Below, piece after piece: positions 2,770 to 25,397 of a stretch of DNA of 64,000 nucleotides. Position 1 is the stretch's first letter. Every line of letters starts with the position of its first letter. The notes under the pieces are model-generated. The model was not told the DNA's origin and searched no databases. It was given only the letters and a program-made list of their open reading frames with translations. Both the position numbers and the translations under genes were made by a program. The stretch comes from an uncultured Chloroflexia bacterium (lineage in GTDB: Bacteria > Chloroflexota > Limnocylindria > Limnocylindrales > CSP1-4): positions 344,879 to 408,878 of the forward strand of contig CAVZVS010000002.1 in assembly GCA_963778815.1 (NCBI GenBank), in the 5' to 3' direction.

Positions 2770-5700
2770 ATGATCTGCGATCGATGCGGCACGGATAACC
2801 GAGCGGGACGACGGTTCTGTCGCTCGTGCGGCGCCGGCCTGACCGCCAGTTGCCCGGCGTGTGGCACCCCGGCGGAGCCTGGCGACAGCTTCTGCGGCGT
2901 GTGCGGCGGCCCACTGCCCGGCGGCGACGGTCCCCCGGCCGCGACCACCCCGCTCGCAAGGCAGACGAACCGCGAGACCGGCCTGACCGAACGTCGCATC
3001 GTGACGGTCCTGTTCGCCGACCTGGTCGGCTTCACGGCGTTGTCGGCCGATCGCGATCCCGAGGCGGTCCAGGAGTTCCTGGACGGGTACTTCGGCCTGG
3101 CCCGAGAGCGGATCGGACGCTACGGCGGGACCATCGAGAAGTTCATCGGCGACGCCGTGATGGCCGTCTGGGGGACGCCGGTCGCCCACGAGGACGATGC
3201 CGAACGGGCCGTTCGAGCCGCCCTCGACCTGGTCGATGCGATCGGCGGCCTGCGCGCCCCGGATGGATCGGCGGTGCTGGTCCGGGCGGGGGTCTTGACC
3301 GGCGAGGCGGCGGTCTCGCTCGGGGCAGACGGTCAAGGCATGGTCGCGGGCGACCTGGTCAATACGGCCAGCCGACTCCAGTCCGCCGCCCCGCCCGGGT
3401 CGGTCCTGGTCGGCGAGGCCACGATGCGGGCGACGGAGCAGACGGTCGTCTACGAGGCGGCCGGCGATCAGGTCCTGCGGGGCAAGGAGGCGCCGGTACC
3501 GGCTTGGCTGGCGACCCGGGTCGTGGCCGGCCGGGGAGGTGCTCGCAGGAGCGTTCGCCTCGAGGCGCCGTTCGTCGGCCGCGACGACGAGCTGCGCCTG
3601 CTCAAGGAGCTCCTCCACGCGACGGGGCGCGAGCGGCGCGCCCGGTTGGTGTCGGTCCTGGGCATCGCCGGGATCGGCAAGAGTCGCCTGGCCTGGGAGC
3701 TCGACAAGTATGTCGACGGCCTGGCCGAGCCGATCTACTGGCACCAGGGCCGATCGCCCGCCTACGGCGAAGGGCTTGCCTTCTGGGCGCTGGGCGAGAT
3801 GGTCCGGGGCCGGGCCGGGATCGCCGAGTCGGATCCACCCGAGCTGGCCCGCGAGAAGCTGGCCGCGATGGCCGTCGAATACCTGCCCGAGCCAGAGGAG
3901 CGAGCGCGGGTCGAACCACGTCTGGCGACCCTTCTCGGCCTGGCCGATGGCGCGACCGGCACTGTCGAGGAGCTGACCGCGGCCTGGCGGACCCTGTTCG
4001 AGCGGATCGCCGACCGGGGGCTGGCCGTCCTCGTCTTCGAGGACCTCCATTGGGCCGACCCTGGCCTGCTCGACTTCATCGAAGGATTGCTGACCGCCTC
4101 GCGGACCCGGCCGATCCTCGTCCTGGCTCTCGCCCGACCCGAGCTCATCGAGGACCGACCGACCTTCGGGGCGAGCCTGCGTAACCACATCCGGCTGGAC
4201 CTCGCCCCGCTTGGCGACGAGGCCATGGACATGCTCCTGCTGGGCCTCGTCCCGGGCACGCCCCAGGTGGCCCTGCGGGCGATCCGTGACGGCGCGGCGG
4301 GGATCCCGCTGTATGCCGTCGAGACGGTCCGGATGCTCATGGACCAGGGCCTGCTCCGGGAGGCAGAGGGACGCTTCCACCTCGTCGGCGATCTCGGTCG
4401 GCTGGCCGTGCCCGAGTCCCTCCAGGGCCTCCTCGGAGCTCGACTGGATGCCCTGGACGACCCGTCGCGGGAGCTGGTCGGGGTCGCCTCCGTGCTCGGG
4501 ATCAGCTTCACCCTCGACGCCCTGGCGACGCTCCAGGGCATCGAAGAGGCCGAGGCGCGGCGCCTCCTCGCTGGCCTTCTCGACCGCGAGATCCTCGTCC
4601 TCGAGAGCGATCCGAGCTCGCCCGAACGGGGCCAGTACCGATTCCTCCAGGGGGTCCTCCGCGAGGTCGCCTACGGCCGCCTGTCCCGGCGCGAGAAGGA
4701 GGCCCGCCACCTGGCCGCCGCCCACTACCTGGAGTCCCTAGGGTCCGACGAGCTGTGCGGGGTCGTCGCCCACCACTATCTCGACGCCCTGCGCAGCGCC
4801 CCGGAAGGCGAAGACCGGACGGACCTCACGGTCACGACGGTGGCGGCCCTGGCGGCCGCGGCCGACCGCTCGACGGCGATCGGCGCACATGCCAGCGCCG
4901 CGGGCTACCTCGGCGAAGCCATCGCCCTGACGCCGGACGAGAGCATCGCCCTGCCCTTCCGCGAATTGCGGGCGGAAGCTCTCGTCTCGGCCGGGCGGAT
5001 CGAGGAAGCCCTGGCCGCGGGATACGAACTCCTGGCGCAGGCCGACGGACGTAGCGATCGACCCCTCCAGGCCCGGGCAGGTCTGCTGGTCACGAACGTC
5101 CTGATCGGGACCGGGCACCCGGCCGAAGCACGGGCCGAGGCGGAACGGATCCAGGCCGACCTAGGCGCGTTCGCCGAGACCGACCCCGACGGCCTGCGCC
5201 TGACCGCCGAGGTCGTCCGGGCCCGCCTGATGAGTGGCGACGCGACCTCGGCCGGAGAGCTGGTCGAGGCGACTCTGCCCCTGGCCGAGCGACTCGGCCT
5301 CCGCCCGGTCGTTGCCGAGCTGCTGGCCAGCAAGGCCTGGGCGTTGTCGGTCGAGGGCCGGGTCGTCGAGGCGGTGGCGCTCCTGCGTGGGACGTTGGTC
5401 CTGGCCGAGCGCGAGGGCCTGTTCAACGCCGAGATGCGGACCCGGATGAACCTGTCCTCCTGGCTGAGCGTCGATTCACCGAGCGAGGCCCTCGAAGTCG
5501 CCCAGCGGGCCTGCGATCTGGCCCTCGAACACGGCTACCAGGGCTGGGCCTTGTCGGCGGCCGGCAACGTCAGCGGGGCGGCCTTCGACATCGGCCAGTG
5601 GGACCGGATCGAGGAACTCGCTGCCCGGCTCGACGTCCTCGGCGAGTGGGTCTCGCCGTGGGACTTCATGGTGCCCAGCGTCCTCGCCATGGTCTGGGCC

Positions 5701-6318
5701 TCGCGCGGTCGGTTCTCCGAGGCCGCTGAGCTGATGGCCCAATTCGAGGTCCAGTACGGCGCAGTGACCGACCCCCAGGTCCTGTCATCGGTCTACAGCA
5801 CGCTCGCTCACATCGCATATGCCGCGGGCGACCTGCCCGAGGCGACGCGCTCTGTCCGCCGACTCGACGCGTTGCTGGCCGAAGCCGGCGTTTCCGGGGA
5901 CCCGGTGATCTCGGCCCTGGTCGCGGCGGAAGACGGGGACAGGGCGCTCCTGTCCGAGACGGTCGAGTCGCTCGGGAGGGGACTCGAGAACGGGCGCCTG
6001 CCCCGAGTCCTGCGAGACTGGCTCGCCGCTGTGGGTCGGGTCAGGGAAGGTGATGTCGGCGCCCTTCGAGAGCTGGATGCCGCCGCCGATGTCTACCGGG
6101 CGGAGGGCGTGCGGTTCGTCCTCGCGGGCCTGCTTCGGGCGCGAGCGATCCTGGCTCCGGACGATCCGGGCGCACGCGCCGCGGCGTCCGAGGCGCGGGC
6201 GATCCTGACCGAGCTCGGTGCGGTCACCCTCCTGCGCGGATTGCCGCCAACCAGCGACGAGACCGCGCCCAGCCCGTCGAGTCCCGCCGACCGGATCGGT
6301 GTTGCGGATCCGGCTTGA
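2770..6318 (+). CDS. large signalling protein: double zinc ribbon + class III adenylate/guanylate cyclase + AAA/NB-ARC-like ATPase + TPR repeats (paralog 1)
   Basis: In-frame ATG at 2770 ([21 protein letters not shown]...CPACGTP...FCGVCG) is preceded by aggaa. The cyclase core is [15 protein letters not shown]...[11 protein letters not shown]...[10 protein letters not shown]. The P-loop is [12 protein letters not shown] long helical TPR-like C-terminus follows. The track ORF is 2464..6318. Confidence 0.85.
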
Positions 6319-6428
6319 TTCCGTGGCGCTCCAGTGCCACCATCGACCCGCACCCTCTCGGCGCCGCTCCATCTGCGGAGCGCTCGTTCCCGTTTCCCTC
6401 GACAGACGTCCCAGCAGGAGGTCGATCG

Positions 6429-6930
<502 letters not shown>

Positions 6931-6945
6931 CAGGAGGCCCATGCG

Positions 6946-9348
6946 ATGACCACCGAGGTACTCGGCGCCCCGATCAAGCGGGTCGAGGATCCGCGCTTCA
7001 TCACCGGCAAGGGTCGCTACCTGGACGACATCCAGATGACCGGGATGACCTACATGGCCATCCTGCGCAGCCCCTATGCCCACGCCGACATCCGCTCGAT
7101 CGACACGTCGGCGGCCAAGGCCATGCCCGGCGTGCATCCTGGTCCTGACCGGAGCGGACGTCCCCTACAACCCGCTGCCGATGGCCTGGCCGGCCGGCGG
7201 CTCCTCGGGCATCCAGAACAACATCAACATGCCCCGGGCACTCGCCACCGATGACGTCAAGTGGACCGGCGAAGGCGTCGCCGCGGTCATCGCCGAGACG
7301 CCCGAGCAGGCCGTCGATGCGACCGAAGCGATCGTCGTCGAGTGGGAGCCGCTGCCGGCGGTCGTCGACACCGAGAAGGCGACCCAGCCGGGCGCTCCCC
7401 AGATCCATGAGAACGCCCCCAACAACGTCGTCTTCGAGTGGACCGTCGGGGACAAGGCCGGGACCGACGCCGCGGTCGACGACGCCGAGGTCGTCGTCCG
7501 CCAGCGGATCGTCAACCAGCGGCTCATCCCCAACCCGCTCGAGGTCCGCGGCGACATCGGGCTGTACAACCCGGGCACCGAGGAGTACACGGTCTGGATG
7601 TCGAGCCAGACGCCCGCACATCCAGCGGCTCCTGCTGACCGCCTTCGTGACCGGCATCCCGGAGCACAAGGTCCGCTGCATCTCGCCCGACGTGGGCGGC
7701 GCCTTCGGCACCAAGATCTTCTGCTACGCGGACATGGCCCTGGTCATGCTCGCCTCGAAGCTCGTCGGTGGCCGACCGGTCAAGTGGGTCGAGACCCGCC
7801 GCGAGAACTACCAGTCGACCATCCACGGGCGCGATCACGTGACCTACCTGGAGATCGCCGGCAAGCGCGACGGCGAGGTGACCGGGCTGCGGGTCAAGAC
7901 CTACGCCAATCTCGGCGGCCGCCTGTCGACCATCGGACCGGGCATCCCGACCACGCTCTACGCGCGGGTCCTGTCGGGCTGCTACAAGATCCCCAACGTC
8001 TACTGCGAGGTCACCGGGGTCTACACCAACACGGTCTTCGTCGACGCCTATCGGGGGGCCGGTCGGCCGGAAGCCACCTACGTCATCGAGCGGGCGATGG
8101 ACCTGTTCGCCGCCGAGATCGGGATGGATCGAGCGCGAGCTCCGGCGCAAGAACTTCATCGCTCCGGACGCCTTCCCATACGACAATCCGTCGGGCCTCG
8201 GGACGGCGGTCAACGGCGAGAAGATCTACATCGACTCCGGCAACTACGAACCGGCCATGGACAAGGCCCTGGGCATCGTCGGCTATGCCGATCTGGCCAA
8301 GGCCAAGGCCGAGGCCCGGACCCGCGGCAAGCACCTCGGTCTCGGCTTCTCGACCTACCTCGAGGTGTGCGGCGTCGCGCCGTCGAAGTGGATCGGGGCG
8401 GTCGGCGAGGGCTGGGGCGCGGCGATGTGGGAGTCGGCCAACCTCAAGGTCCACCTGACCGGAAAGGTCATCCTGACCATGGGTACCCAGCCCCAGGGCC
8501 AGGGCCACGAGACGACCTATTCCCAGGTCATCGCCTCGGAGCTCGGGCTGCCCATGGACGACATCATCGTCCAGCACTCCGACACCCAGGGCACGCCGTT
8601 CGGCTACGGCTCGTACGGCAGCCGGACGTCCTCGGTCGGCAGCACGGCCGCGATCAAGGCGGCGGGCAAGGTCCGTGAGAAGGCCCGGCGCTATGCCGCT
8701 CATATGCTCGAAGCCTCGGTCGACGATATCGAGGTGATCGGCGCGGAGTATCGGGTCAAAGGCTCGCCCGAGAAGAAGAAGACCCTCCAGGAGATCGCCT
8801 TCGCGCTCGACCTGGGGTTCAGCCTGCCCGACGGGATGGAGCCCTATCTCGACGAGACCGCCTATCACGACACGCCCAACTGCACCTGGCCGTTCGGGAC
8901 CCACATCGCGGTGGTCGAATTGGACGACGACACCGGCAAGGTGGACCTGGTCCGCTACGTCGCGGTCGACGACGTCGGCAACAAGATCAACCCGATGATC
9001 GTCGATGGTCAGCTTCACGGCGGGATCGCCCAAGGCGTCGGCCAGGCCCTCTGGGAGCAGGCCGTCTACGACGACGCCGGGCAGCTCCTGTCGGGCTCGA
9101 TGCTCGACTACGCCCTGCCCCGGGCGTCGTGGCTGCCGGATTTCGAGCTCGACGAGACGGTCACCCCCTCACCGGTCAACCCGATCGGGGTCAAGGGCGT
9201 CGGCGAGGCTGGCGCCATCGCCAGCTCGGCGGCCGTCGCCAACGCGGTCATCGATGCGCTGGCACCGTTCGGGGTCCGCCATCTCGATATGCCGTTCACC
9301 GCGCCGAAGGTCTGGCGCGCGATGCACTCCCAGGAGGCCCGGTCGTGA
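6946..9348 (+). pseudogene. coxL: form II CODH/XDH-family large molybdopterin subunit (CoxL-like, AYRGAGR type) with 3 frameshifts
   Basis: ATG at 6946 follows cAGGAGG. Collinear homology to the intact paralog (17922..20309) is split over frames 1→2→3→1 across ORFs 6946.., 7076.., 7251.., 8257..9348. Breaks are at about 7135, 7615 and 8130. Motifs VDAYRGAGRPEATY and GTQPQGQGHETT are present. Confidence 0.75.
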
Positions 9349-10212
9349 TCCCAGCCGAGTTCGAATACGACCGTCCGGCGACCGTCGCCGAGGCGCTCGC
9401 CATCCTGGCCCGGAATCCAGGGAGCGCCAAGGTCCTGGCCGGTGGCCAGAGCCTGCTCGGGTTGATGCGCCTGCGCCTGGCCCGACCCGAGCGGCTGGTC
9501 GACATCGGCCGGCTCGACGAGCTCAAGGGCATCCGGGCGCTGCCCGACGGCGGGCTGGCCATCGGCGCCCTGGCGACCTATCGCGAGGTCCTCGACTCGG
9601 CCCTGGCGACCTCGCGGGTGCCGCTCCTGGCCATGACCATCGCCGACATCGGCGACGTCCAGGTCCGCAACCGCGGGACCGTCGTCGGTTCGATCGCCCA
9701 CGCCGATCCGGCCTCGGACATGCCGGCGGTGGTCCTCGCCCTCGAGGCGGCGATCGTGGCCCGGTCGAGCAGCGGCGAGCGGATCGTGCCGGCGACCTCG
9801 TTCTTCGAGGGCGCCTTCGTGACCGACCTGGCCGAGGACGAGTTGCTGACCGAGATCCGGATCCCGGCCCAGCCGGCCGGGGTCGGGATGGCCTATCGCC
9901 GGTTCGAACAGCCGGCATCGGGCTACTCGATCGCCGGGGCGGCTGCGGTCGTCGGGCGGACCGGGGGCGTGGTGATCGACGGTCCGGATCGGGGTGACCG
10001 GGGTCGGCGACGTCGCCTACCGGGCGTCGGCCGTCGAGGCTGCCCTGAGTGGCACGAGCGGGGATGCCGGGTCGATCGCAGCCGCCGCGGCCCATGCCGT
10101 CGACGGGGTGACAGTCGGCTCCGATATCCACGCCGACGCCGTGTACCGGGCGGAGATGGCCCGGGTCCACGTCCGGCGGGCGATCGAGGCGGCGCTGGGC
10201 GCCGCCGACTGA
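9345..10212 (+). pseudogene. coxM: CODH/XDH-family FAD-binding medium subunit (CoxM-like) with a frameshift
   Basis: GTG at 9345 overlaps the CoxL stop (GTGA) and follows cAGGAGG. VIPAEFEYDRPATVAEA...AGGQSLL is read up to about 9985. The C-terminus GVGDVAYRASAVEAALSG... is then in ORF 9994..10212. The intact paralog is at 16510. Confidence 0.7.
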
Positions 10213-10225
10213 CCGTCGAAGCCGG

Positions 10226-11309
10226 GTGCGGCTCGAACGGATCGTTCCCGGAGACACTGCGCCAGCGGACGTCGACGGAGCGGTCCTCGTCCGTGACCTC
10301 GTGGTCGACGGCGAGCGCTGGTCGAAGGGTCGGCGGCTGACCGCAGCCGACCTGAGGACCCTGGCCGCTCCTGGGGTGGTCGTCGCGGGCGAACCCCGGG
10401 CCCTGGCCGATGCCGGGATCGCCGTTCTCGTGCCCGAGGCGGACGACCTCCACGAAGACGACGCTGCGATCCGCCTGGCGGCGGCGGTCGCCGGTCCCGG
10501 CCTGACCCGGCGCGGCCCGGCCGAGAGTCGGGTCGACCTGCTCGCTGCGACCGATGGCCTGCTCCATGTCCGGGCCGACCTGGTCGAGCGGATGGACCGG
10601 ATCGATCCGGTCGAGGTGTTCACGTTGTTCGACGGCCAGGTGGTCCGGGCGGGCGATCTGGTGGCCAGCGTCAAGGTCGCCCCGCATGTGGTCCCCGCGG
10701 AGGTGGTCGCCCGGGCCGAGCGGGTCGCCCGGCGAGCCGGCTCGCCCGGGGTCGTTCGGGTCGTGCCGTTCGTCCGACGCCGAGTGGCCGCCCTGGTCAA
10801 GGAGTCCGTCCACGCGCCGGCGCGGGAGCGCTTCGAGGCGAGCGTCAGGCTGAAGGTGGAGTCGCTTGGCTCGGAGCTGGTCGCGGTCGTCTACGTGGCC
10901 GACGCGGCAGATCCGGTGACCGACGCTCTGCGTTCGCTGGCCCGGGGGCGCGGGCCGGATCGGGCCGACCTCGTCCTCACCGCCGGGTCGGCCAGCACGG
11001 ACCCCGAGGATCCCTTCTACGTCGCGATCGAGCGACTCGGCGGCCGGGTGGTTCGCCACGGCGTCCCGGCCCACCCCGGCTCGATGCTGTGGCTGGCCCG
11101 GATCGGCCGGACGGACCTCGCTCGGCCTGCCCTCGTGCGGCGCCTACTCGAAGGCGACGGCGGCCGATCTGCTCCTGCCCCGGCTGCTGTCGGGCGAGCC
11201 GGCCAGTGCGGCGACCGTCGCCCGGCTCGGCGTCGGCGGGATCCTGACCCGCTCGATGCGCTTCCGCTTCCCGGCCTACGCCCGCGACCTCGACGCACCG
11301 GACGGGTAG
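10226..11309 (+). pseudogene. molybdopterin-binding (MoCF_biosynth / MoeA-CinA-like domain) protein with a frameshift
   Basis: GTG at 10226. It carries a DLVLTAGSAS motif. After a frame change at about 11105-11125, a GLPSCGAYS...LLLPRLLSG segment (cf. GLPGNP) is read, ending at TAG 11307-11309. Confidence 0.5.
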
Positions 11310-11392
11310 ACTCCACGCCATGCCCGACCCCGAAGACCGGACCGCCGCTCCCGCCCCGGTCGGCCGACGACCGCCCGGACAGCACCCGTTCG

Positions 11393-12270: not shown

Positions 12271-12290
12271 GCCGGGACGGACCCGCGACC

Positions 12291-13736: not shown

Positions 13737-13759
13737 GCTGTCGAGATGGACCGTCCGCG

Positions 13760-16289: not shown

Positions 16290-16329
16290 GCCCTCCCGAT
16301 ACATCCGGCCGACCCATGGATACGTATCG

Positions 16330-16358
16330 TTGACGCGTCCACTACGCACGCCTATCCT
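16330..16358 (+). promoter_or_regulatory. sigma-70/SigA-type promoter (TTGACG-17-TATCCT) for the form I cox operon, followed by a ~150-nt leader
   Basis: ttgacgcgtccactacgcacgccTATCCT sits in the only sizeable intergenic gap (16290-16509). coxM then starts at 16510 after GGAGG. Confidence 0.4.
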
Positions 16359-16509
16359 CGGCCTACGACATCCAACGTAGCGTCCGGGTTACCACCGAGT
16401 CGCGATCTCGGTCCGCTCCGGGGCCCCGTCTCGAGTCGTCGACCAGCAGCGTGTTCGCCGCTCCAAGCGGCGAGCGTCAGCGTCCGACTCAGGGCGCGGA
16501 GGAGAACGG

Positions 16510-17385: not shown

Positions 17386-17394
17386 GAGCGCGTG

Positions 17395-17907
17395 ATGGCC
17401 AGCCACAAGATCGAGCTCAGCGTCAACGGCGAGGCTCGCACGGCGGAAGTCGAGTCGCGCCTCCTCCTGGTCCACCTGCTCCGTGACACCTTCGGTCTGA
17501 CCGGTACCCACGTCGGCTGCGATACCAGCAACTGCGGGGCGTGTACGGTCCTGATCGATGGCGAAAGCGCCAAGTCGTGCACGGTCCTGGCCGTCAGTGC
17601 CGAGGGCCGTGAGGTCAAGACCATCGAGGGGATGGCCGAGGGGGCGACCCTCCACCCGCTCCAGCAGGCGTTCTGGGACCAGCACGGCCTCCAGTGCGGC
17701 TTCTGTACCCCCGGCATGATCATGCAGTCGGCCTGGCTGCTGGAGCACAACCCGGACCCGACCGAGACCGAGATCCGGGCGGGCATCAGCGGCAACCTGT
17801 GCCGCTGCACGGGTTACGTCAACATCGTCAAAGCCATCCAGCAAGCGGCCGGCGAGATGGCCGCTGCCGCCGAGACCCAGACCGGTTCGCCGGTCGCGGC
17901 CGGTTGA
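17395..17907 (+). CDS. coxS: form I CO dehydrogenase small subunit (2Fe-2S, CoxS)
   Basis: It has [18 protein letters not shown] and [10 protein letters not shown]...CRCTGY. AGGAG lies 7 nt upstream of ATG 17395 (track start GTG 17392). Confidence 0.9.
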
Positions 17908-17921
17908 GCGGGAGTGACCAG

Positions 17922-20309
17922 ATGACCACAGAAGCGGTGCTCCAGACCACTCCCGAAGTCGGCGGGATGGGCCACTCGGTCAAGCGCAAGGAAGACCCGC
18001 GCTTCATCCGGGGTCAGGGCGAGTACATCGACGACGTCAACCTGCCGGGGCAGCTCTGGCTCGACATCGTCCGGAGTCCCTACGCCCACGCCACGATCAA
18101 GTCGATCGACGCCACCGAGGCGCTCAAGGTCCCAGGCGTCGCCGCCGTCGTCACCGGCAAGGACCTCGAGGGCTACAAGCTCCATTGGATGCCGACCCTG
18201 GCGGGCGACATGCAGATGGTCCTGCCCGTGGACACGGTGATGTACCAGTCGCAGGAGGTCGCGGCGGTCATCGCCACGTCCCGCTACGCCGCCGCCGACG
18301 GGGTCGCCGCGGTCGTCGTCGACTACGAGCCGCTGCCGGTCATCGTCGATCCGTTCAAGGCCCTCGAGCCGGATGCCTTCGTCCTTCGGCCGGACCGCGG
18401 CCCGGACAAGCAGAACAACCACATCTGGCACTGGGAATCGGGTGATCGCGCCGCCGCCGATGCGGCCCTCGCGGCCGCAGACGTGACCGTATCCGAGGAC
18501 ATCTATATCCCACGCATCCACGTCGCCTCGATCGAGACGTGCGGCTGCGTCGCCGACTGGGATCCGGTCCGCCAGCAGCTCACCCTGCACATGACGTCGC
18601 AGGCCCCCCACGCCATCCGGACGGTCCTGGCCCTCGTCGCCGGAGGTGCCGGCCTGCCCATCTACGAGCACAACATCCGGGTCAAGACGCACGACATCGG
18701 CGGTGGCTTCGGAGGCAAGGTGCCGGTCTACCCCGGCTACGTCCTGGCCGTCGCCGCCTCGTTCCTTACCGGCAAGCCGGTCAAGTGGATCGAGGATCGG
18801 TCCGAGAACCTGCAGGCCGATTCGTTCGCCCGGGACTACCACATCCATGCCGAGATGTCGGCGACCAAGGAAGGCAAGATCACCGGTCTCAAGGTCAAGA
18901 CGATCGCCGACCACGGCTACACCGACGCGGCCGCCGATCCGTCCAAGTACCCGGCCGGCCTGTTCAACGTCATCACCGGCTCGTACGACTTCCCGGACGC
19001 GTTCGTCGAGGTCGATGGTGTCTACACGAACAAGCCGCCCGGCGGCGTCGCCTATCGCTGCTCGTTCCGGGTGACCGAGGCGGTCCACGCCATCGAGCGG
19101 ATGGTCGACATCCTGGCCCACGAGATCGGCAAGGATCCTGCTCAGCTCCGGATGGAGAACTTCATCCAGCCCGAGCAGTTCCCCTACAAGACACCGACCG
19201 GCTGGTCGTACGACTCGGGCAACTACCCGGCCGCACTCCAGAAGGCCATGGACATGATCGACTACGCCGGCCTGCGCAAGGAGCAGGCTGAGAAGCGGGC
19301 GAAGGGCGAGCTGATGGGCATCGGCATCAGCAGCTTCACCGAGATCGTCGGCGCCGGACCGTCCCACGACTTCGACATCCTGGGCATCAAGATGTTCGAT
19401 TCGTGCGAGATCCGGGTCCATCCCACGGGCAAGGTGCTGGCCCGGATCGGCGTCCAGTCGCAGGGCCAGGGTCACGAGACGACCTTCGCCCAGATCATCG
19501 CCGAGGAGCTCGGCTTTCCGGTCGCGGACATCAAGATCGAGTACGGCGATACCGACACCGCCCCGTACGGGTTGGGGACCTATGCGTCGCGCTCTACCCC
19601 GGTCGCCGGGGCGGCCACCGCGATGGCCTCACGCAAGATCAAGGACAAGGCCCGCAAGCTGGCGGCCCACTTGCTCGAGGCCAACGAGGACGACCTCGAG
19701 TGGACCAATGGCAAGTTCTCGGTCAAGGGCTCGCCTGAGCAGTCCAAGACGATCCAGGAGCTCGCCTTCGCGGCTTACACCAACCATCCCGAGGGGATGG
19801 AGGCCGGTCTCGAGGCGGTCGACTACTACGACCCACCCAACCTGACCTTCCCGTTCGGCAGCTATATCTGCGTGGTCGACATCGACAAGGGCACCGGTCA
19901 GGTCACCGTCCGGCGCTTCGTGGCGGTCGACGACTGCGGCAACATCATCAACCCGATGATCGTCGACGGCCAGATCCACGGCGGGCTGACGATGGGGTTC
20001 GCTCCGGCCCTGTACGAGGAGATCACCTACGACGAGCTCGGCAACAACCTGGCCGGGACGTTCATGGACTACCTCCTGCCGACCGCGGTCGAGACGCCCG
20101 CCTGGGAGACCGGCAAGACCGTGACCCCGTCACCGCATCATCCGATCGGGGCCAAGGGTGTCGGTGAGTCGGCGACCGTCGGCGCCCCGCCGGCCATCGC
20201 CAATGCCGTCGTCGATGCCCTGTGGCACCTGGGCGTGCGCAACGTCGACATCCCGATGACCCCCCAGAAGATCTGGGCCATCCTGCGCGAGAAGGGGGTG
20301 ACGGCGTAG
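17922..20309 (+). CDS. coxL: form I [MoCu] CO dehydrogenase large subunit (CoxL, AYRCSFR signature)
   Basis: ATG at 17922 (MTTEAVLQTTPEV). It carries the active-site loop GGVAYRCSFRVTE and the Mo-binding GVQSQGQGHETT. It is intact at 795 aa. The track ORF start 17694 is an upstream over-extension that overlaps coxS. Confidence 0.92.
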   Translation: MTTEAVLQTTPEVGGMGHSVKRKEDPRFIRGQGEYIDDVNLPGQLWLDIVRSPYAHATIKSIDATEALKVPGVAAVVTGKDLEGYKLHWMPTLAGDMQMVLPVDTVMYQSQEVAAVIATSRYAAADGVAAVVVDYEPLPVIVDPFKALEPDAFVLRPDRGPDKQNNHIWHWESGDRAAADAALAAADVTVSEDIYIPRIHVASIETCGCVADWDPVRQQLTLHMTSQAPHAIRTVLALVAGGAGLPIYEHNIRVKTHDIGGGFGGKVPVYPGYVLAVAASFLTGKPVKWIEDRSENLQADSFARDYHIHAEMSATKEGKITGLKVKTIADHGYTDAAADPSKYPAGLFNVITGSYDFPDAFVEVDGVYTNKPPGGVAYRCSFRVTEAVHAIERMVDILAHEIGKDPAQLRMENFIQPEQFPYKTPTGWSYDSGNYPAALQKAMDMIDYAGLRKEQAEKRAKGELMGIGISSFTEIVGAGPSHDFDILGIKMFDSCEIRVHPTGKVLARIGVQSQGQGHETTFAQIIAEELGFPVADIKIEYGDTDTAPYGLGTYASRSTPVAGAATAMASRKIKDKARKLAAHLLEANEDDLEWTNGKFSVKGSPEQSKTIQELAFAAYTNHPEGMEAGLEAVDYYDPPNLTFPFGSYICVVDIDKGTGQVTVRRFVAVDDCGNIINPMIVDGQIHGGLTMGFAPALYEEITYDELGNNLAGTFMDYLLPTAVETPAWETGKTVTPSPHHPIGAKGVGESATVGAPPAIANAVVDALWHLGVRNVDIPMTPQKIWAILREKGVTA

Positions 20310-21355
20310 GCGCGAACGGCCAGCTGTCGCTGCTCGAACGAGCGGTCGAGCTCGACCGCTCGGGGCAGCCCTATGCCCTGGCCACCGTCGTCGCCGTCCG
20401 TCGTCCCACCTCGGCTCGACCGGGAGCCCGCGGGCTGATCCATCCCGACGGTTCGATCGAGGGCTTCGTCGGGGGAAGCTGCGCCCGCCCGCTGGTCGTC
20501 CGGGAGGGGCTTCGGGCGCTGGCCGACGGGCAACCCCGCCTCCTTCGGATCAGCAAGGAGTTGTCGTCCGAGAGCCGGCGCGGTGACGGCATCGTCGAGG
20601 AAGTCATGACCTGCCACTCCGGTGGCACCCTGGAGATCTACGTGGAACCGCATCTGCCTGCGCCGGCCCTGTGGATCGCCGGGACGACGCCCATCGCCGC
20701 CGCCCTCGCCGAACTCGGTTCGGGGATGGGCTTCGACGTGACCATGATCGACCCGGTCGCCGACGCCGGTCTCCTGCCCGACGTCGCCCGGGTCGTCGTC
20801 GGGGACGACCTGAGCGTGCTCGACTGGCCGACCGTCGGCCCGTACGTGGTGGTCGCCAGTCAGGGCACCTGGGACGAGGAGGCGGTGGCCTCGGCGCTCC
20901 GCCTCGATGTCGCCTACGTCGGCCTGGTCGCAAGTCCGACGCGGGCAGCAGCCGTCCGGACCTGGCTGCTTGACGAGGGTATCGAGCCGGACCGGGTGTT
21001 CGCCCTGCGCGCCCCGGCCGGGATCGACCTCGGGGCCGAGACGGCCAGCGAGGTGGCCATCTCGATCCTGGCCGAGCTGGTCCAGGTCCGCCGCGGCCGG
21101 GCCGCCTTCGTGGCCGCGCCCGGACCGGCCACCCTCGCCGGATCGACGGCCCCGGCGCAGTCGATCGTCTTCGGCCCGACCGACGATATCGTCCTGCTCG
21201 ACCCGGTCTGCGGGATGACCGTCGATCGCGAGACCGCTCGCCATCTGGCCGAGCACGGTGGGGTCGTCTACGCCTTCTGCTCGATCGCCTGTCGATCGAG
21301 TTTCGTCCGGGAACCGACGGCCTATGTCGGCGCCGGAGCCAAGACGGGCAGCTGA
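20222..21355 (+). CDS. XdhC/CoxI-family Mo-cofactor chaperone with C-terminal YHS (TRASH-like copper-binding) domain
   Basis: It has the XdhC N-terminus LLERAVELDRSGQPYALATVV...GFVGGSCARP and a Rossmann part. The C-terminus has CGMTVDRETARHLAEHGGVVYAFCSIAC (YHS motif). The start is uncertain. The track GTG 20222 overlaps coxL by 88 nt, and no ATG/GTG/TTG exists nearer. CTG at about 20324 would give a canonical XdhC N-terminus. Confidence 0.75.
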   Translation: MAPGRAQRRHPDDPPEDLGHPAREGGDGVGANGQLSLLERAVELDRSGQPYALATVVAVRRPTSARPGARGLIHPDGSIEGFVGGSCARPLVVREGLRALADGQPRLLRISKELSSESRRGDGIVEEVMTCHSGGTLEIYVEPHLPAPALWIAGTTPIAAALAELGSGMGFDVTMIDPVADAGLLPDVARVVVGDDLSVLDWPTVGPYVVVASQGTWDEEAVASALRLDVAYVGLVASPTRAAAVRTWLLDEGIEPDRVFALRAPAGIDLGAETASEVAISILAELVQVRRGRAAFVAAPGPATLAGSTAPAQSIVFGPTDDIVLLDPVCGMTVDRETARHLAEHGGVVYAFCSIACRSSFVREPTAYVGAGAKTGS

Positions 21356-21375
21356 CCGCCCGGTCCGGAGGATCC

Positions 21376-21819
21376 ATGCACTTCGAAGGTACCGAGGAGA
21401 TCGCTGCGCCCCAGGACAAGGTCTGGGCGTTCGTGATCGATCCGACCCAGGTCGGTCAGTGCGGCCCCGGGGTCGAGTCGGTCGAGGCCGTCGACGCCAG
21501 CCACTTCAAGGCGAAGGCCAAGGTCGGCATCGGCTTCATCACCGCCAAGTTCAACGCCGATGGCGAGATGATCGTCATCAGCGCGCCCGAGCACGCCGAG
21601 GTCAAGATCCACGGCCAGGCGCCGGGTACCGCCGCGGATGCGGTCGCGACGATCAAGCTGTCAGCGGGCGCCGCGGCAGGGTCGACGACGATGGACTGGT
21701 CGGCCGAGGTGAACATCTCGGGCACCCTCGCCAGCGTCGGGGCGCGGCTCATCGAGGGCACCGCCAACAAGCTCATCGCCCAGACCTTCGCCTGCATGAA
21801 GACCAAGCTCGAGGCCTGA
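21376..21819 (+). CDS. coxG: CoxG (SRPBCC-fold carbon monoxide dehydrogenase subunit G)
   Basis: ATG at 21376 follows GGAGG. It is 147 aa with MHFEGTEEIAAPQDKVWAFVIDP...GTANKLIAQTFACMKTKLE. Confidence 0.85.
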   Translation: MHFEGTEEIAAPQDKVWAFVIDPTQVGQCGPGVESVEAVDASHFKAKAKVGIGFITAKFNADGEMIVISAPEHAEVKIHGQAPGTAADAVATIKLSAGAAAGSTTMDWSAEVNISGTLASVGARLIEGTANKLIAQTFACMKTKLEA

Positions 21820-21842
21820 TCGGGGCGTTCGGGTCAGGCCTC
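21811..21842. terminator. bidirectional hairpin between convergent coxG and cyclase-ATPase regulator 2
   Basis: A perfect 9-bp inverted repeat gaggcctga-(14 nt)-tcaggcctc embeds both stop codons (TGA 21817-19, TCA 21834-36). Confidence 0.4.
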
Positions 21843-24800
21843 GGTACGGTCTCCCGGTCCAGCCGCCTCGATCGGGATCGCGAGCGGCGGCGCCTCTCGC
21901 GGCGTTGCGCGATCTTCGGCCCAGCGGGCGAGACCGATGTCGAGCCGCTCGAGCAGCGGCGGCGATCCGAGCTTGGTGAAGATCGCGCGGGCCTCGTCCG
22001 CCGCGGCGCGAGCGCCCGGGTCATCGGGGCCGATCAACGATGCATACTCCAGCTGGCAGCGGCCGAGCTCGACCGGCAGATCGAGCCGTCGGAACGCATC
22101 GCCGGCCGTTCGATACCGAGCGATGGCATCCTCGCGGCGTCCCTCGAGGGCGTCCAGGCCGGCCTCGACGACCATCCGCATCGCCTCCGTCCACGCGCCC
22201 CGCTCGGGCGATTCGCGACTGAGCTCGACGGCGACCCGCGTCCGCTTCGGATCTTCCATCCAGATGGCGTAGTGCGCTGCGGTCGCACACGCCCAGACGA
22301 ATGGCACGAGCCTGGCGGCCGTCATCGCCTCGTCGTACGCCTCCGCGAGCTGACCGCCGAGGGCGAGGATCTCGGCGCGCACGTAGTGACGAGAGGCGAC
22401 GAAGTCCGGTCGGGACGAGTCCGGAGCGTAGCGGTCCGCGGCGGTCAGCTCGCGGGCGGCGGTGGGGAGGTCGCCCCGGTAGGCCGCGAGCGACGCCCGC
22501 GTCTCGTGGATCCCCTGGAGGTCCTGCGGCTGGACATCGCCGGCCTCTACCTCGTCGGCAAGCTCCAACAGCCAGTCCCAGAGGCCGAGCGCGAACCCGC
22601 CGCCGTAGCACTGCCAGGTGCTCCACCTGAACTGATCACGGGCACCAAGCCTCCTGGCGAGCTCGCGGACGTCGACGACAGCCGCCAGCGAGGCCCTCGG
22701 GTCGTCCAGATAGAGCAGATTGGCGTAGTTCGAGCGGGCTCGGAACTCGGTGCTCGTCAACCGATGAGCGACGGCCAGCTCGATGGCCCCGCCCAGGATC
22801 GCGATCCCCTCATGCCGGCGCCCGATCGTATCGAGCGCGGCGGCCTTGGTCACGAGCGCTTCGGCGATGATCGGGATCGCCTCGAGCCTCTCGGCGGCGA
22901 TCAAGGCCCGGTCGGCGACATCGAGCGCACGTGGGTCGTTGTTCACCATCAGCGCCCGCGCCGACTCGGCGACCACCCGGACGACCTCCGGTCGATCCTC
23001 GAGACCGGCACACTCGGCCAGCGACTCCTCGAGGAGATCGTTCGCCTCGGTCGACATGCCGATCTCGAACATGGGTTGGGTGAGGAGGACGACGGCTCGA
23101 GCCGCGCCGATCCGATCACCGGTCGCCCGGTACCAGTCGACCGCCTGTCGTCCGTACCGTTCGGAGACGTCGCTCTTGCCAGCGTGGTGGGCTGACGTCG
23201 CCGCGGCTTCCCAGAGGCTCGCTCGCTCGGCGGGTTCGATCGTGACCGTCAGGGCCTGCTCGAGGTAGTCGAGGGCCAGGTCGTACGACCCGAGTCCAGC
23301 CGCCCGCTCGGCGGCCCCACGCAGGGCGACCCGGGCCTGGGCAGCCAGCGCATCTGCTTCAGGACCATCGGGCGTCGCTCGATAGGCATCGAGGTAGTGG
23401 CTGGCAAGGACGCCCGCCAGCTCGTCGCCCCCGAGTGTCTCGAAGTAGCGAGCCGCGGCCAGGTGGCGCGTCCTTCGGTCGCGTTTGGCCAGCGTTTCGT
23501 AGGCGACCTCCCGGATGGGCCCCTGGACGAACGCATACTGTCCCCGCTCCGGGGACCGCGGTTGCTCGTCGAGCGACAGGATCTCCCGGCGGACGAGGGT
23601 CCGGAGCCTCGCGACGAGGTCGTCCACGGATCGCCCACTGATCGCGACGAGCGCATCCATCGTGAAGCTCAGGCCCAGCACGGACGCGTCCTGGAGGACC
23701 GCCCGCTCGTCGGCCGGCAGCGCGTCGAGCCTGGCGCCGATCAGGCCTCGGAGGGATTCGGGGATGGCCAGCTCACGAAGATCGCCGTCCACCCGATAGC
23801 CATCGTCCTCGCGCAGGAGCCGACCCTCGTCGATGAGCATCCGAACGGTCTCGACCGCGAACAGGGGAACCCCCGCCGCCCGAGCGACGATCCGGCGACC
23901 GGCACCCACCGGCAGGCCGGGGACGACACCGTCGAGCAGACGCATCATCGCCTCATCGGACAGGGGATCGAGGTGGAGGGCGGTGAAGTTGCGCTGGCCG
24001 GCACCCCAGGTCGGCCGCCGCTCGAGGAGCTCCGGTCGGGCCAGGGTGATGATCAGGATCTGTTGGTTCCGGCTCCATTCGAGGATCAATTCGATGAACT
24101 CGACGAGGCCGCCGTCGGCCCATTGCAGGTCCTCGAACACGAGGACGACGAGACCTCGCTCGGCGATCCGCTCGAGGAGCCCGCGGGCCGCCGCGAACGC
24201 CTCATCCTGGCGGCCCGCTCCTGGGTGGTCGTAGCCCAGGAGGGCCAGCAGCCACGGGGCCATCGCCCGCCGTTCGGCCTCGTCGGGCACGTATTCCTCG
24301 AGCGTGGCGGCGAGTCGTGTCCGGGCCGTCTCGGCATCGTCGCTCTCGGCGATCCCGGCCCGTCCCCGGACCATCTCGGCCAGCGCCCAGAAGGCGATCC
24401 CTTCGCCGTAGGCCGGTGACCGACCCTGGTGCCAGTAGACGTCGTCGACGATGCCGTCGATGTACTTCTCGAGCTCCCAGGCGAGCCGGCTCTTGCCGAT
24501 CCCGGCGATCCCGGTCACCGACACGAGTCGCGCCCGCCGCTCGTCGGCGACCGCGTGGAGGATGTCCTTGAGCAGGCGCAGCTCGGCGTCGCGTCCGACG
24601 AACGGCGGCTCGATCCGCTCGGAGCGCCCGCGCCCGCCGACCATGGCCAGGGTATGCAGCGCGCGCCAGGCCGGCACGGGGGCGGTCCGGCCCCGCAGGT
24701 CCTGCTCGCCGAGTGGCTCGGCGGCGATCGCGGCGGCTGTCGCGCGGTGGGTCTGCTCATCGAGCAGGACGCTCCCGCCGGGCGCGATGCCCTGCAACCG

Positions 24801-25397
24801 GGAGGCGGTGTTGACCAGATCCCCGGTGACCAGGCCCTGGTCGGTCGCGCCGACGGTCACCGCCGCCTCACCGGTCATCACCGCGGCGCGTGCTTGCAGG
24901 GTGGGTCCGTCCGGGGCGACCCGCAGGGCACCTACCGCACTGAGCAGCTCGAGCGCCGCCCGGACCGCGCGCTCGGCGTCATCCTCGTGCGAGGTCGGCG
25001 CACCCCAGACGGCCATGACCGCGTCGCCGATGAACTTCTCGAGGGTCCCGCCGTAGCGCTCGACGACGGCCCGACAGGTCGCGAAGTAGCGATCCTGGAG
25101 CTCGCGCAGTTCCTCGGCATCGCGTCCCTCGGCCAGGGTCGTGAACCCGACCAGGTCCGCGAACAGGACCGACACGATCCGGCGCTCGGTGACCGGCTGG
25201 GCGCCGTCCGTCCCTGACGCAGCGACCTCGCCGGCCAGGGTCGTCCCGCACTCGCCGCAGAACTTGGCCGCGGGCGGGTTGCTGGCACCGCATGATGGGC
25301 AGCCCGACACAAGGCGGGCCCCGCACTCATGGCAGAACTTGCGCCCGGTCTCGTTCTCGGTGGCGCAGCTCGGGCAACGCACCGCTGACCCCTCCAC
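21834..25397 (-). CDS. large signalling protein: double zinc ribbon + class III adenylate/guanylate cyclase + AAA/NB-ARC-like ATPase + TPR (paralog 2)
   Basis: ORF 21834..25397(-), GTG start. It is collinear with the 2770..6318 protein: CPSCATENETGRKFCHECG...CPSCGA, then [15 protein letters not shown]...[11 protein letters not shown], then [11 protein letters not shown]. It is intact at 1187 aa. Confidence 0.85.
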   Translation of the reverse strand: MEGSAVRCPSCATENETGRKFCHECGARLVSGCPSCGASNPPAAKFCGECGTTLAGEVAASGTDGAQPVTERRIVSVLFADLVGFTTLAEGRDAEELRELQDRYFATCRAVVERYGGTLEKFIGDAVMAVWGAPTSHEDDAERAVRAALELLSAVGALRVAPDGPTLQARAAVMTGEAAVTVGATDQGLVTGDLVNTASRLQGIAPGGSVLLDEQTHRATAAAIAAEPLGEQDLRGRTAPVPAWRALHTLAMVGGRGRSERIEPPFVGRDAELRLLKDILHAVADERRARLVSVTGIAGIGKSRLAWELEKYIDGIVDDVYWHQGRSPAYGEGIAFWALAEMVRGRAGIAESDDAETARTRLAATLEEYVPDEAERRAMAPWLLALLGYDHPGAGRQDEAFAAARGLLERIAERGLVVLVFEDLQWADGGLVEFIELILEWSRNQQILIITLARPELLERRPTWGAGQRNFTALHLDPLSDEAMMRLLDGVVPGLPVGAGRRIVARAAGVPLFAVETVRMLIDEGRLLREDDGYRVDGDLRELAIPESLRGLIGARLDALPADERAVLQDASVLGLSFTMDALVAISGRSVDDLVARLRTLVRREILSLDEQPRSPERGQYAFVQGPIREVAYETLAKRDRRTRHLAAARYFETLGGDELAGVLASHYLDAYRATPDGPEADALAAQARVALRGAAERAAGLGSYDLALDYLEQALTVTIEPAERASLWEAAATSAHHAGKSDVSERYGRQAVDWYRATGDRIGAARAVVLLTQPMFEIGMSTEANDLLEESLAECAGLEDRPEVVRVVAESARALMVNNDPRALDVADRALIAAERLEAIPIIAEALVTKAAALDTIGRRHEGIAILGGAIELAVAHRLTSTEFRARSNYANLLYLDDPRASLAAVVDVRELARRLGARDQFRWSTWQCYGGGFALGLWDWLLELADEVEAGDVQPQDLQGIHETRASLAAYRGDLPTAARELTAADRYAPDSSRPDFVASRHYVRAEILALGGQLAEAYDEAMTAARLVPFVWACATAAHYAIWMEDPKRTRVAVELSRESPERGAWTEAMRMVVEAGLDALEGRREDAIARYRTAGDAFRRLDLPVELGRCQLEYASLIGPDDPGARAAADEARAIFTKLGSPPLLERLDIGLARWAEDRATPREAPPLAIPIEAAGPGDRTEA

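What the first reader, a model, noticed from the sequence alone, without database searches (positions are those of the whole stretch)
2770..25397. Two paralogous Mo-hydroxylase (CODH/XDH-family) clusters, each flanked by a DZR-cyclase-AAA-TPR signalling protein
**Form II cluster.** A form II cluster with coxS-L-M gene order and the AYRGAGR motif sits at 6429-16289. It also carries a MoCF-domain protein, coxD, coxE, xdhC and a mocA-methyltransferase fusion.

**Form I cluster.** A bona fide form I Mo-Cu CODH cluster with coxM-S-L order and the AYRCSFR motif sits directly after it at 16510-21819. It adds xdhC-YHS and coxG.

**Regulators.** A ~1180-aa protein with double zinc ribbon, class III nucleotidyl cyclase, AAA/NB-ARC-like ATPase and TPR is co-directional upstream of the form II cluster at 2770-6318. 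Its paralog at 21834-25397 is convergent on the form I cluster. Neither has a DNA-binding domain. The M. tuberculosis LuxR-type cyclases Rv0386 and Rv2488c have a similar core plus a C-terminal HTH domain.

**Why it matters.** A cNMP- and ATP-dependent STAND-like sensor paired with each trace-gas oxidation module would be a regulatory system that, to my knowledge, has not been described for CO dehydrogenases.
Basis: partly seen in the sequence, partly recalled or inferred. Interest (0 to 1): 0.8.

Follow-up and report, generated by a model that had tools for sequence, protein, structure and literature searches.

The report
Sensor cyclase genes beside CO-dehydrogenase clusters
Two adjacent molybdenum-enzyme gene clusters, one a true CO dehydrogenase, really are bracketed by two large sensor-type adenylate cyclase genes, but sister lineages keep the same clusters without these genes, so the pairing looks lineage-specific and not a conserved regulatory system.

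Summary
The sequence features are real. A form II CoxL-like cluster (AYRGAGR, 6429-16289) is followed by a true form I Mo-Cu CODH operon (AYRCSFR, 16510-21819). Both are flanked by two 1182-aa paralogs (47% identical) with double zinc ribbon, class III cyclase (all six adenylyl-cyclase catalytic residues present), AAA_16 STAND-type NTPase and a TPR-like solenoid, and no HTH.

Two corrections apply. The form II cluster is broken by seven 1-nt frameshifts in this assembly, most likely long-read consensus errors. Its CoxL also scores below the curated CODH threshold.

The "paired regulator" reading is weakly supported. Orthologs keep the arrangement only within collinear relatives. Four sister loci have the same form I cluster and flanks without big2, and two have the form II cluster without big1. 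Across 160 family loci, 5 have Mo-hydroxylase genes within 10 kb, and the family is very large and often tandemly duplicated. The form I promoter element is conserved with or without big2. No cNMP receptor or CRP site lies nearby.

Verdict: new members of a known, uncharacterised cyclase-STAND family. A dedicated role in cox control is possible but unlikely (about 15%).

The parts
2770..6318 (+). big1: DZR, class III adenylyl cyclase, AAA_16 (STAND-type) NTPase and TPR-like solenoid, 1182 aa. It ends 110 nt upstream of coxS of the form II cluster and runs in the same direction.
   Evidence: Pfam. Catalytic D84, K124, D128, D195, N198 and R202 are invariant in alignment A2. Orthologs in L085 (66%) and L022 (54.5%) sit at the same position.
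6429..6930 (+). coxS (form II cluster), [2Fe-2S] subunit. A +1 insertion at 6528 (GGG[C]CTG) breaks the frame.
6946..9348 (+). coxL-like large subunit, form II (AYRGAGR at 8046). It is split over four frame segments by +1 insertions at 7135, 7613 and about 8135. The conceptual product is 799 aa.
   Evidence: tblastn frames. DNA alignment to the intact L085 gene. NCBIfam 729.6 bits, below the cut-off of 991.
9345..10212 (+). coxM (form II cluster), FAD subunit, with a frameshift at about 9978.
10226..11309 (+). MoCF_biosynth-domain protein, with a frameshift at about 11119.
   Evidence: Pfam, frame model. The total length matches the 362-aa L171 ortholog.
11330..12270 (+). coxD (MoxR-like AAA_5 ATPase), with a frameshift at about 11543. 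The start coordinate is approximate.
12270..13736 (+). coxE (VWA_CoxE). The start coordinate is approximate.
   Evidence: Pfam 196.9 bits.
13760..14872 (+). xdhC/coxI-type Mo-cofactor insertion chaperone.
   Evidence: Pfam, start position.
14856..16289 (+). MobA-like NTP transferase (mocA type) fused to a methyltransferase.
   Evidence: Pfam, start position.
16330..16358 (+). Promoter-like element TTGACG-17-TATCCT upstream of the form I operon. It is conserved in loci with and without big2.
16510..17385 (+). coxM (form I), FAD subunit, intact.
   Evidence: Pfam.
17392..17907 (+). coxS (form I), [2Fe-2S] subunit, intact.
   Evidence: Pfam.
17904..20309 (+). coxL (form I) Mo-Cu CODH large subunit, with VAYRCSFR at 19047, intact.
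   Evidence: TIGR02416 1217.9 bits against a cut-off of 991.
20312..21355 (+). xdhC fused to a C-terminal YHS domain. The start is approximate; the ORF opens at 20222.
   Evidence: Pfam. The L001 ortholog is 347 aa.
21376..21819 (+). coxG (SRPBCC).
   Evidence: Pfam 121 bits.
21834..25382 (-). big2: paralog of big1 with the same architecture, 1182 aa. It is convergent on coxG, with the two stop codons 15 nt apart.
   Evidence: Pfam. Identical to P0001. Catalytic residues. AF2 model and Foldseek.

Best explanation
**What is there.** The region is a co-directional Mo-hydroxylase supercluster of about 15 kb. A form II CoxL-like operon with maturation genes is followed by a genuine form I Mo-Cu CO dehydrogenase operon that has its own conserved promoter-like element. 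Two divergent members of a very large, paralog-rich family of soluble signalling proteins bracket it.

**How the large proteins most likely work (inferred from the domain order).**
1. The C-terminal TPR-like solenoid binds a ligand or partner protein.
2. This releases the STAND NTPase to bind ATP and oligomerise.
3. Oligomerisation brings the N-terminal class III cyclase domains into active dimers.
4. The dimers make cAMP, which acts on receivers encoded elsewhere.

**Why they sit next to the cox clusters.** The position is a lineage-specific arrangement inherited within narrow clades. It is not a conserved regulator-target pairing.

**The frameshifts.** The seven frameshifts in the form II cluster are most likely consensus errors of a long-read metagenome assembly.
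For: **Architecture and residues**
- Pfam shows DZR, Guanylate_cyc and AAA_16 above threshold in both proteins.
- Metal Asp, Lys/Asp specificity and Asn/Arg transition-state residues are conserved. Lys is present where the guanylyl cyclase Cya2 has Glu.
- The Walker A motif GIGKS is invariant.
- The AF2 model has a confident C-terminal solenoid and no HTH, and the top Foldseek hit is the STAND-TPR protein 6mfv.

**Family size**
- There are more than 8000 homologs.
- There are more than 597 genome loci.
- At least 19 of 160 loci carry extra copies or tandem arrays nearby.

**Synteny**
- big2 orthologs at 62-83% identity keep the arrangement, but the whole neighbourhood is collinear.
- Four loci with CoxG at about 70% identity have coxM-S-L-xdhC/YHS-coxG followed directly by the same Lactamase_B/RsgA/ABC genes, with no big2.
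- L170 and L171 have the g1721 ortholog followed directly by the form II cluster, with no big1.
- Mo-hydroxylase genes lie within 10 kb in only 5 of 160 family loci, or 1.52 Mb of flanks.
- The form I promoter element is conserved with or without big2.

**Frameshifts**
- All five testable frameshifts are +1 insertions relative to the intact L085 genes, and the pieces contain no in-frame stops.
- Sister long-read assemblies show frameshifts at other positions, in cox and in non-cox genes.
Against: - Both clusters being flanked by two non-sister family members is a coincidence that needs explaining.
- The big1-to-coxS junction is kept at 54.5% regulator identity in L022.
- Two further family members sit next to unrelated Mo-hydroxylase operons (L032, L098).
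- Seven of about eight frameshifts in the window fall within 5 kb, which uniform random error would not produce.
- Nothing about cyclase activity, ligand or oligomerisation has been measured.
Confidence: 0.68

Rival explanations
1. big1 and big2 are dedicated sensors for their neighbouring cox clusters. Each senses a cue such as CO, reductant or starvation through its TPR/NTPase module and raises cAMP, which switches on the adjacent operon through a cAMP-responsive factor.
For: - Both clusters are flanked, and big1 ends 110 nt upstream of coxS in the same direction.
- The adjacency is retained in L085 and L022 for big1, and in L001 and L082-L084 for big2.
- L032 and L098 show other family members directly beside other Mo-hydroxylase operons.
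- Regulation of CODH in Actinomycetota and Chloroflexota is largely unresolved (PMC13098282).
Against: - Sister lineages have the same clusters and flanks without these genes, in 4 of 4 and 2 of 2 loci tested.
- There is no family-wide enrichment.
- The form I promoter element is identical with or without big2.
- There is no CRP-like site in the four intergenic regions checked, and no cNMP-binding gene among the window genes scanned, which cover about 1-53 kb.
- big2 is convergent and not co-transcribed.
- cAMP diffuses freely, so genetic linkage is not required.
Confidence: 0.15
2. The frameshifts are real. The form II cluster, including coxD, would then be a recently inactivated, decaying operon in this organism.
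For: Seven frameshifts are concentrated in 6.5-11.6 kb, with about one candidate elsewhere in 58 kb. Not all lie in homopolymers; GTG[C]ATC is an example.
Against: - The pieces contain no in-frame stop codons, and the protein is 84-94% identical to the intact L085 ortholog.
- Related assemblies (L001, L083, L084, L167, L170, L171) carry frameshifts at different positions in cox genes. L082 and L167 also carry them in unrelated genes.
- The contig names and MFD MAG relatives suggest long-read assemblies.
Confidence: 0.2
3. big1 and big2 are conflict or defence modules: Avs-like STAND sensors with a Pycsar-like cyclase effector that happen to have inserted at cluster borders.
For: - The architecture is a STAND NTPase with a TPR sensor.
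- The cyclase domain hits PycC models.
- The genes are present or absent between conserved flanks.
- Tandem arrays are common.
Against: - No Avs or other STAND defence model matches.
- There is no adjacent cNMP-activated effector.
- The Lys/Asp pair predicts cAMP and not cCMP or cUMP.
- The family is conserved over its full length at about 50% identity across phyla, with thousands of members.
Confidence: 0.04

Closest known systems
M. tuberculosis Rv0386 / Rv1358 / Rv2488c (class III cyclase, MalT-type ATPase, TPR, LuxR HTH)
   Same: N-terminal class III cyclase followed by a P-loop MalT/AAA_16-type NTPase and a TPR region (bioRxiv 10.1101/2024.03.06.583649).
   Different: The window proteins have no C-terminal LuxR HTH. 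They carry an N-terminal double zinc ribbon. They have the canonical Lys/Asp substrate pair, whereas Gln/Asn is reported for Rv0386 (my own knowledge: Castro et al. 2005).
STAND NTPases with TPR sensors (E. coli MalT; PH0952, PDB 6mfv)
   Same: An NTPase followed by a helical-repeat sensor. 6mfv is the best structural match. The presumed logic is ligand-gated, nucleotide-dependent oligomerisation.
   Different: The output domain is a nucleotide cyclase at the N-terminus and not a DNA-binding domain. The NTPase part of the model has low confidence.
TOMM system kinase/cyclase fusion protein (TIGR03903)
   Same: This is the best NCBIfam match. It shares the cyclase, AAA and downstream region, model positions about 250-900.
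   Different: Scores of 208-222 bits are far below the cut-off of 706. There is no N-terminal kinase and no TOMM biosynthesis genes nearby.
Known regulators of aerobic CODH genes: CoxC (MHYT-LytTR), RcoM (haem PAS-LytTR), CutR (LysR type)
   Same: They are encoded next to cox/cut genes.
   Different: All are one-component DNA-binding transcription factors, with direct CO or ligand sensing shown experimentally (PMC11347149, PMC12609908). The window proteins have no DNA-binding domain, and their link to cox is positional only.
Form I Mo-Cu CODH (Afipia/Oligotropha CoxMSL) and form II CoxL-like enzymes
   Same: Form I has the AYRCSFR motif, M-S-L order, coxG, and passes TIGR02416. Form II has the AYRGAGR motif and S-L-M order.
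   Different: The form I operon here has xdhC-YHS and coxG downstream, while coxD and coxE lie only in the upstream form II cluster. Form II CoxL is below the CODH model cut-off.

Membership tests
Class III adenylyl cyclase (PF00211) | Guanylate_cyc domain above the Pfam gathering score | tested here: met
   75.4 and 59.5 bits against a cut-off of 21.9.
Class III adenylyl cyclase (PF00211) | Two metal-binding Asp, Lys/Asp adenine-specifying pair, Asn/Arg transition-state pair | tested here: met
   In big2 these are D76, D120, K116, D188, N191 and R195. In big1 they are D84, D128, K124, D195, N198 and R202. They are invariant or nearly invariant in A1 and A2 and were aligned to solved cyclases.
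Class III adenylyl cyclase (PF00211) | cAMP synthesis in vitro | not testable with these tools
   Needs purified protein.
STAND NTPase (MalT-like) | P-loop NTPase with Walker A and B motifs | tested here: met
   AAA_16 scores 65.7 and 67.1 bits. GIAGIGKS and VLVFEDL are conserved.
STAND NTPase (MalT-like) | C-terminal repeat (TPR-like) sensor domain | tested here: met
   The AF2 model has a solenoid over residues 633-1157 at pLDDT of about 90. Foldseek matches are 6mfv and TPR proteins. Pfam TPR hits are sub-threshold.
STAND NTPase (MalT-like) | Nucleotide-dependent oligomerisation | not testable with these tools
   A biochemical property.
LuxR-type cyclase regulators (Rv0386 group) / LAL regulators | C-terminal LuxR/GerE HTH DNA-binding domain | tested here: not met
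   There is no HTH hit in Pfam or NCBIfam. The model ends in the solenoid plus a disordered tail.
Form I Mo-Cu CO dehydrogenase | AYRCSFR active-site loop and curated model score | tested here: met
   VAYRCSFR is at 19047. TIGR02416 gives 1217.9 bits against a cut-off of 991.15.
Form I Mo-Cu CO dehydrogenase | coxM-S-L order with maturation genes | tested here: met
   M-S-L, xdhC-YHS and coxG. coxD and coxE lie upstream. No coxF was identified.
Form II CoxL-like Mo-hydroxylase | AYRGAGR loop and S-L-M order | tested here: met
Form II CoxL-like Mo-hydroxylase | Qualifies as a CO dehydrogenase by the curated model | tested here: not met
   729.6 bits for the reconstructed window protein and 783.9 bits for intact L022, against a cut-off of 991.15.
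Form II CoxL-like Mo-hydroxylase | Intact reading frames in this sequence | tested here: not met
   Seven frameshifts. They are probably assembly errors.
TOMM kinase/cyclase fusion (TIGR03903) | Score above cut-off and an N-terminal kinase | tested here: not met
   208-222 bits against a cut-off of 705.75. The match starts at model position about 250.
Pycsar / Avs-type defence system | Match to system models beyond the generic cyclase domain, with an adjacent effector | tested here: not met
   Only PycC cyclase-domain hits were found. The neighbours are cox, DUF1501/DUF1800 and Meth_synt_2 genes.
Dedicated cox regulator (operational definition) | Adjacency to cox conserved across independent lineages and above the base rate | tested here: not met
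   The genes are absent in 4 of 4 and 2 of 2 sister loci with conserved flanks. 5 of 160 family loci have Mo-hydroxylase genes.
Dedicated cox regulator (operational definition) | Effect on cox transcription or CO oxidation | not testable with these tools
   Requires genetics or transcriptomics.

The most novel reading that the evidence does not exclude
In one narrow clade, probably a Limnocylindria-like Chloroflexota lineage, two different members of the cyclase-STAND-TPR family were independently recruited to the borders of the form II and form I cox clusters. There they act as cAMP-producing sensors that tune expression or maturation of these Mo-enzymes. This would be a second-messenger route of CODH control unlike the known one-component regulators CoxC, RcoM and CutR.
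Probability: 0.13. Interest if true: 0.6.

Novelty: new member of a known kind. Interest (0 to 1): 0.27.

Why it matters
How atmospheric CO oxidation is regulated in soil Chloroflexota and Actinomycetota is poorly understood, so a cAMP-based sensor dedicated to CODH would be a useful lead. The evidence here reduces that to a lineage-specific gene neighbourhood. The proteins belong to a very large, uncharacterised family of STAND-type adenylyl cyclases whose inputs and outputs are unknown, and that family is the more general open question. The analysis also shows that cox genes in these long-read MAG assemblies are riddled with frameshifts. This matters for anyone counting intact CODH genes in such data.

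Tried and rejected
- **Exact-sequence look-ups.** Look-ups of window proteins (coxM, P0001) found no record, so the source contig could not be fetched. The organism is inferred only from relatives' names: Chloroflexota, Limnocylindrales and 'Chloroflexia' MFD MAGs.
- **CRP sites.** A CRP-type palindrome search (TGTGA-N6-TCACA, up to 3 mismatches) in the four relevant intergenic regions found nothing. This is weak evidence, because the cAMP receptor of this lineage is unknown.
- **cNMP receivers in the window.** Pfam annotation of genes across about 1-53 kb found no cNMP-binding or CRP-family gene. The region 53-64 kb was not annotated.
- **Further paralogs.** I suspected more paralogs at 45.5-49 kb and 60-63.4 kb from segment lengths. 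This was rejected: tblastn finds only big1 and big2, and 45593-48028 is a DAO/GCV_T oxidase.
- **L051.** It first looked like a form I cluster with a nearby family member. HNH, CN_hydrolase, YceI and aldo-keto reductase genes lie in between, so it is not adjacent.
- **Fragment lengths.** C-terminal CoxL fragments of 408-446 aa suggested a recurrent break point. Direct comparison showed different frameshift positions in L170 and L171, so this was not pursued as a programmed event.
- **Literature.** The main text of the 2004 actinobacterial cyclase survey (PMC2447327) was not held, so it could not be used.

Full report
**Observation**

The window is about 70% G+C. The two diagnostic CoxL loops are real: AYRGAGR at nt 8046 and VAYRCSFR at nt 19047, both on the + strand.

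The form I operon consists of intact ORFs with the expected Pfam domains:
- coxM, 16510-17385
- coxS, 17392-17907
- coxL, 17904-20309
- xdhC fused to a YHS domain, ending at 21355
- coxG, 21376-21819

Form I CoxL passes the curated aerobic-CODH model, scoring 1217.9 bits against a TIGR02416 cut-off of 991.

The two large genes are big1 (2770-6318, +) and big2 (21834-25382, -). They encode 1182-aa proteins that are 47% identical over their full length. Both have DZR, Guanylate_cyc and AAA_16 domains above Pfam thresholds and no HTH.

GC3 phase, a codon-model segmentation and tblastn with the form I paralogs show that the form II cluster is not a set of intact ORFs in this sequence.
- coxL runs through four frame segments.
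- coxS, coxM, the MoCF gene and coxD each change frame once.

I aligned the DNA to an orthologous metagenome contig, L085, which has 83.5% nucleotide identity and an intact coxL in one frame. The five testable breaks are single-base insertions in the window, for example GGG[C]CTG at 6528, GTG[C]ATC at 7135 and ACG[C]CCG at 7613.

The conceptual products have no in-frame stops. The coxL pieces are 84-94% identical to L085.

The related loci L001, L083, L084, L167, L170 and L171 are named contig_N in ENA assemblies. Many further relatives are 'MFD…bin' MAGs. These loci carry frameshifts at different positions in their cox genes, and L082 and L167 also carry them in unrelated genes.

I therefore read the window's frameshifts as consensus errors of a long-read assembly, at about 75-80% confidence. 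Their concentration in 5 kb keeps a real, very recent pseudogenisation open.

Separately, the reconstructed form II CoxL scores 729.6 bits and its intact L022 ortholog 783.9 bits. Both are below the CODH model cut-off of 991. Calling this cluster a trace-gas module is therefore not established.

**What the large proteins are**

*Cyclase domain.* Alignment to solved class III cyclases (Cya2 2w01, CyaB 3r5g and others) shows all six canonical residues. In big2 numbering these are:
- metal-binding D76 and D120
- K116, where the guanylyl cyclase Cya2 has Glu
- D188
- N191 and R195

They are invariant or nearly invariant across 20 homologs, and the equivalents are invariant in the big1 subgroup. 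This predicts a competent homodimeric adenylyl cyclase.

*Other motifs.* The eight Cys of the double zinc ribbon and the Walker A motif (GIAGIGKS) are invariant.

*C-terminal region.* An AlphaFold model has mean pLDDT 72. The cyclase and NTPase parts are poor, but residues 633-1157 are at about 90. That region is roughly 26 paired helices, a TPR-like solenoid followed by a disordered tail, with no DNA-binding domain. The best Foldseek match is the solved STAND-TPR protein 6mfv, and the rest are generic TPR proteins.

*Library matches.* The best NCBIfam match is the TOMM kinase/cyclase fusion family, far below its cut-off. PADLOC matches only the cyclase domain (PycC) and no STAND defence model.

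*Inferred mechanism.* From the domain order, the TPR domain senses a ligand or partner. The STAND NTPase then oligomerises with ATP, the cyclase domains dimerise, and cAMP is produced. None of these steps has been tested.

**Is the pairing with cox conserved?**

*The family.* It is very large. More than 8000 database proteins score E <= 1e-10, mostly from Chloroflexota, Limnocylindria, Dormibacterota, Gaiellales and other Actinomycetota MAGs.

*big2 orthologs.* Orthologs at 83, 69, 68 and 62% identity (L001, L082, L083, L084) are all convergent on a form I coxM-S-L-xdhC/YHS-coxG operon. The whole neighbourhood is also collinear with the window (Lactamase_B, g28800, GNAT acetyltransferases, RsgA). 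This is inheritance within one clade and not independent evidence.

*Reverse test for big2.* This was the decisive test. In four loci with CoxG at about 70% identity (L165, L167, L169 and a 74-kb JGI contig), the same form I operon runs into the same Lactamase_B/RsgA/ABC genes, at most a 128-aa ORF apart, with no cyclase gene. tblastn found no remnant.

*big1.* Orthologs in L085 (66%) and L022 (54.5%) precede a form II coxS-L-M-MoCF-coxD-coxE cluster. Again the upstream genes are conserved. In L170 and L171, with CoxL at 73-76% identity, the g1721 ortholog runs straight into coxS without big1.

*Family-wide counts.*
- I surveyed 160 loci and 1.52 Mb of flanking DNA. Only 5 loci carry a Mo-hydroxylase large subunit within 10 kb, and two of those are the big1 orthologs themselves.
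- From my own knowledge, soil Actinomycetota and Chloroflexota have several to more than ten such operons per genome. The observed count is about the base rate.
- At least 19 loci hold extra family copies, including tandem arrays, so chance adjacencies are expected.
- Clustering of 1326 flanking ORFs found no universal partner. The most suggestive recurrent neighbour is an MFS transporter fused to a cNMP-binding domain, in 11 loci.

*Points that still favour a link.*
- Both clusters are flanked by non-sister family members.
- The big1-coxS junction survives to 54.5% identity.
- L032 and L098 place other family members directly beside unrelated Mo-hydroxylase operons. L032's is closest to pucD but below that model's cut-off.

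**Local regulatory anatomy**

A TTGACG-17-TATCCT element at 16330-16358 lies upstream of coxM of the form I operon. It is conserved in all seven loci compared, including the two without big2.

No CRP-type palindrome occurs in the four relevant intergenic regions. No cNMP-binding or CRP-family gene was found among the window genes scanned, which cover about 1-53 kb. The stop codons of big2 and coxG are 15 nt apart and convergent, so the two genes are not co-transcribed.

**Comparison with known systems**

The closest characterised relatives in architecture are M. tuberculosis Rv0386, Rv1358 and Rv2488c, which have cyclase, MalT-type ATPase, TPR and a LuxR HTH (bioRxiv 10.1101/2024.03.06.583649). 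The window proteins lack the HTH and add a zinc ribbon.

Known regulators of aerobic CODH genes are CoxC, RcoM and CutR. All are one-component DNA-binding proteins (PMC11347149, PMC12609908). In mycobacteria CODH regulation is unresolved, and cAMP-CRP did not bind the huc promoter tested (PMC13098282). A cyclase-STAND regulator of cox would therefore be new, but the evidence here for such a role is only positional and lineage-restricted.

**Verdict**

The molecular description of the large proteins is supported. The claim of a paired regulatory system is not supported by comparative genomics, though it is not excluded (about 13-15%). These are new members of a known, uncharacterised protein family sitting next to standard cox clusters.

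Noticed in passing
window 6400-11600: Seven single-base frameshifts are concentrated in the form II cluster, in coxS, coxL (three), coxM, MoCF and coxD. The rest of the window has about one candidate, near 54207. The five testable ones are +1 insertions relative to the intact L085 ortholog.
   Followed up: yes
L001, L083, L084, L167, L170, L171 (ENA ERZ25039xxx contig_N assemblies); also L082: These related assemblies show many frameshifts at non-homologous positions in cox genes. L082 and L167 also show them in unrelated genes (g28800 in L082; Lactamase_B, GNAT and RsgA in L167). Gene calls for CoxL in these data are often fragments of 400-450 aa. Highly conserved genes may attract cross-mapped reads during polishing; that explanation is my inference.
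   Followed up: partly
L141:3504-5522 (-) and 10 other family loci: An MFS transporter with a C-terminal cNMP-binding domain recurs near cyclase-STAND-TPR family genes, in 11 of 160 loci and within two genes in 5. It is a plausible cAMP receiver for part of this family.
   Followed up: partly
L122:3260-20031, L141:6350-17242, L076:6807-22038: Tandem arrays of three to five family members occur in single loci, which shows strong local paralog expansion.
   Followed up: partly
window 25506-28047 (-): A DUF1501/DUF1800 gene pair lies between big2 and the Lactamase_B gene in the window. It is absent at that position in the collinear relatives. L001 and L084 have a sigma-70 family gene plus a protein of about 570-610 aa there. 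L082 has the large protein plus a PBP gene, and L083 a PBP gene only.
   Followed up: no
window 20222-21355 (+): XdhC is fused to a C-terminal YHS (putative copper-binding) domain directly after form I coxL. This fusion is conserved in all relatives examined. It may couple Mo-cofactor and Cu insertion, given that coxD and coxE are found only in the upstream form II cluster and no coxF was identified.
   Followed up: no
window 16330-16358 (+): A TTGACG-17-TATCCT promoter-like element lies about 150 nt upstream of coxM. It is conserved across seven loci, which implies a long conserved 5' leader for the form I operon.
   Followed up: partly
window 42034-52948: This region holds two amino-acid permeases, two APH/choline-kinase-type genes, a DAO+GCV_T (dimethylglycine/sarcosine-oxidase-like) gene and a metallophosphoesterase. 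It may be a choline or betaine-type catabolic region unrelated to the finding.
   Followed up: no
L032:975-8978 and L098:6133-13265: Other family members lie immediately next to non-CODH Mo-hydroxylase operons. L032's is closest to pucD (xanthine-dehydrogenase type) but below that model's cut-off. These are the only hints of a wider association between this family and Mo-hydroxylases.
   Followed up: partly
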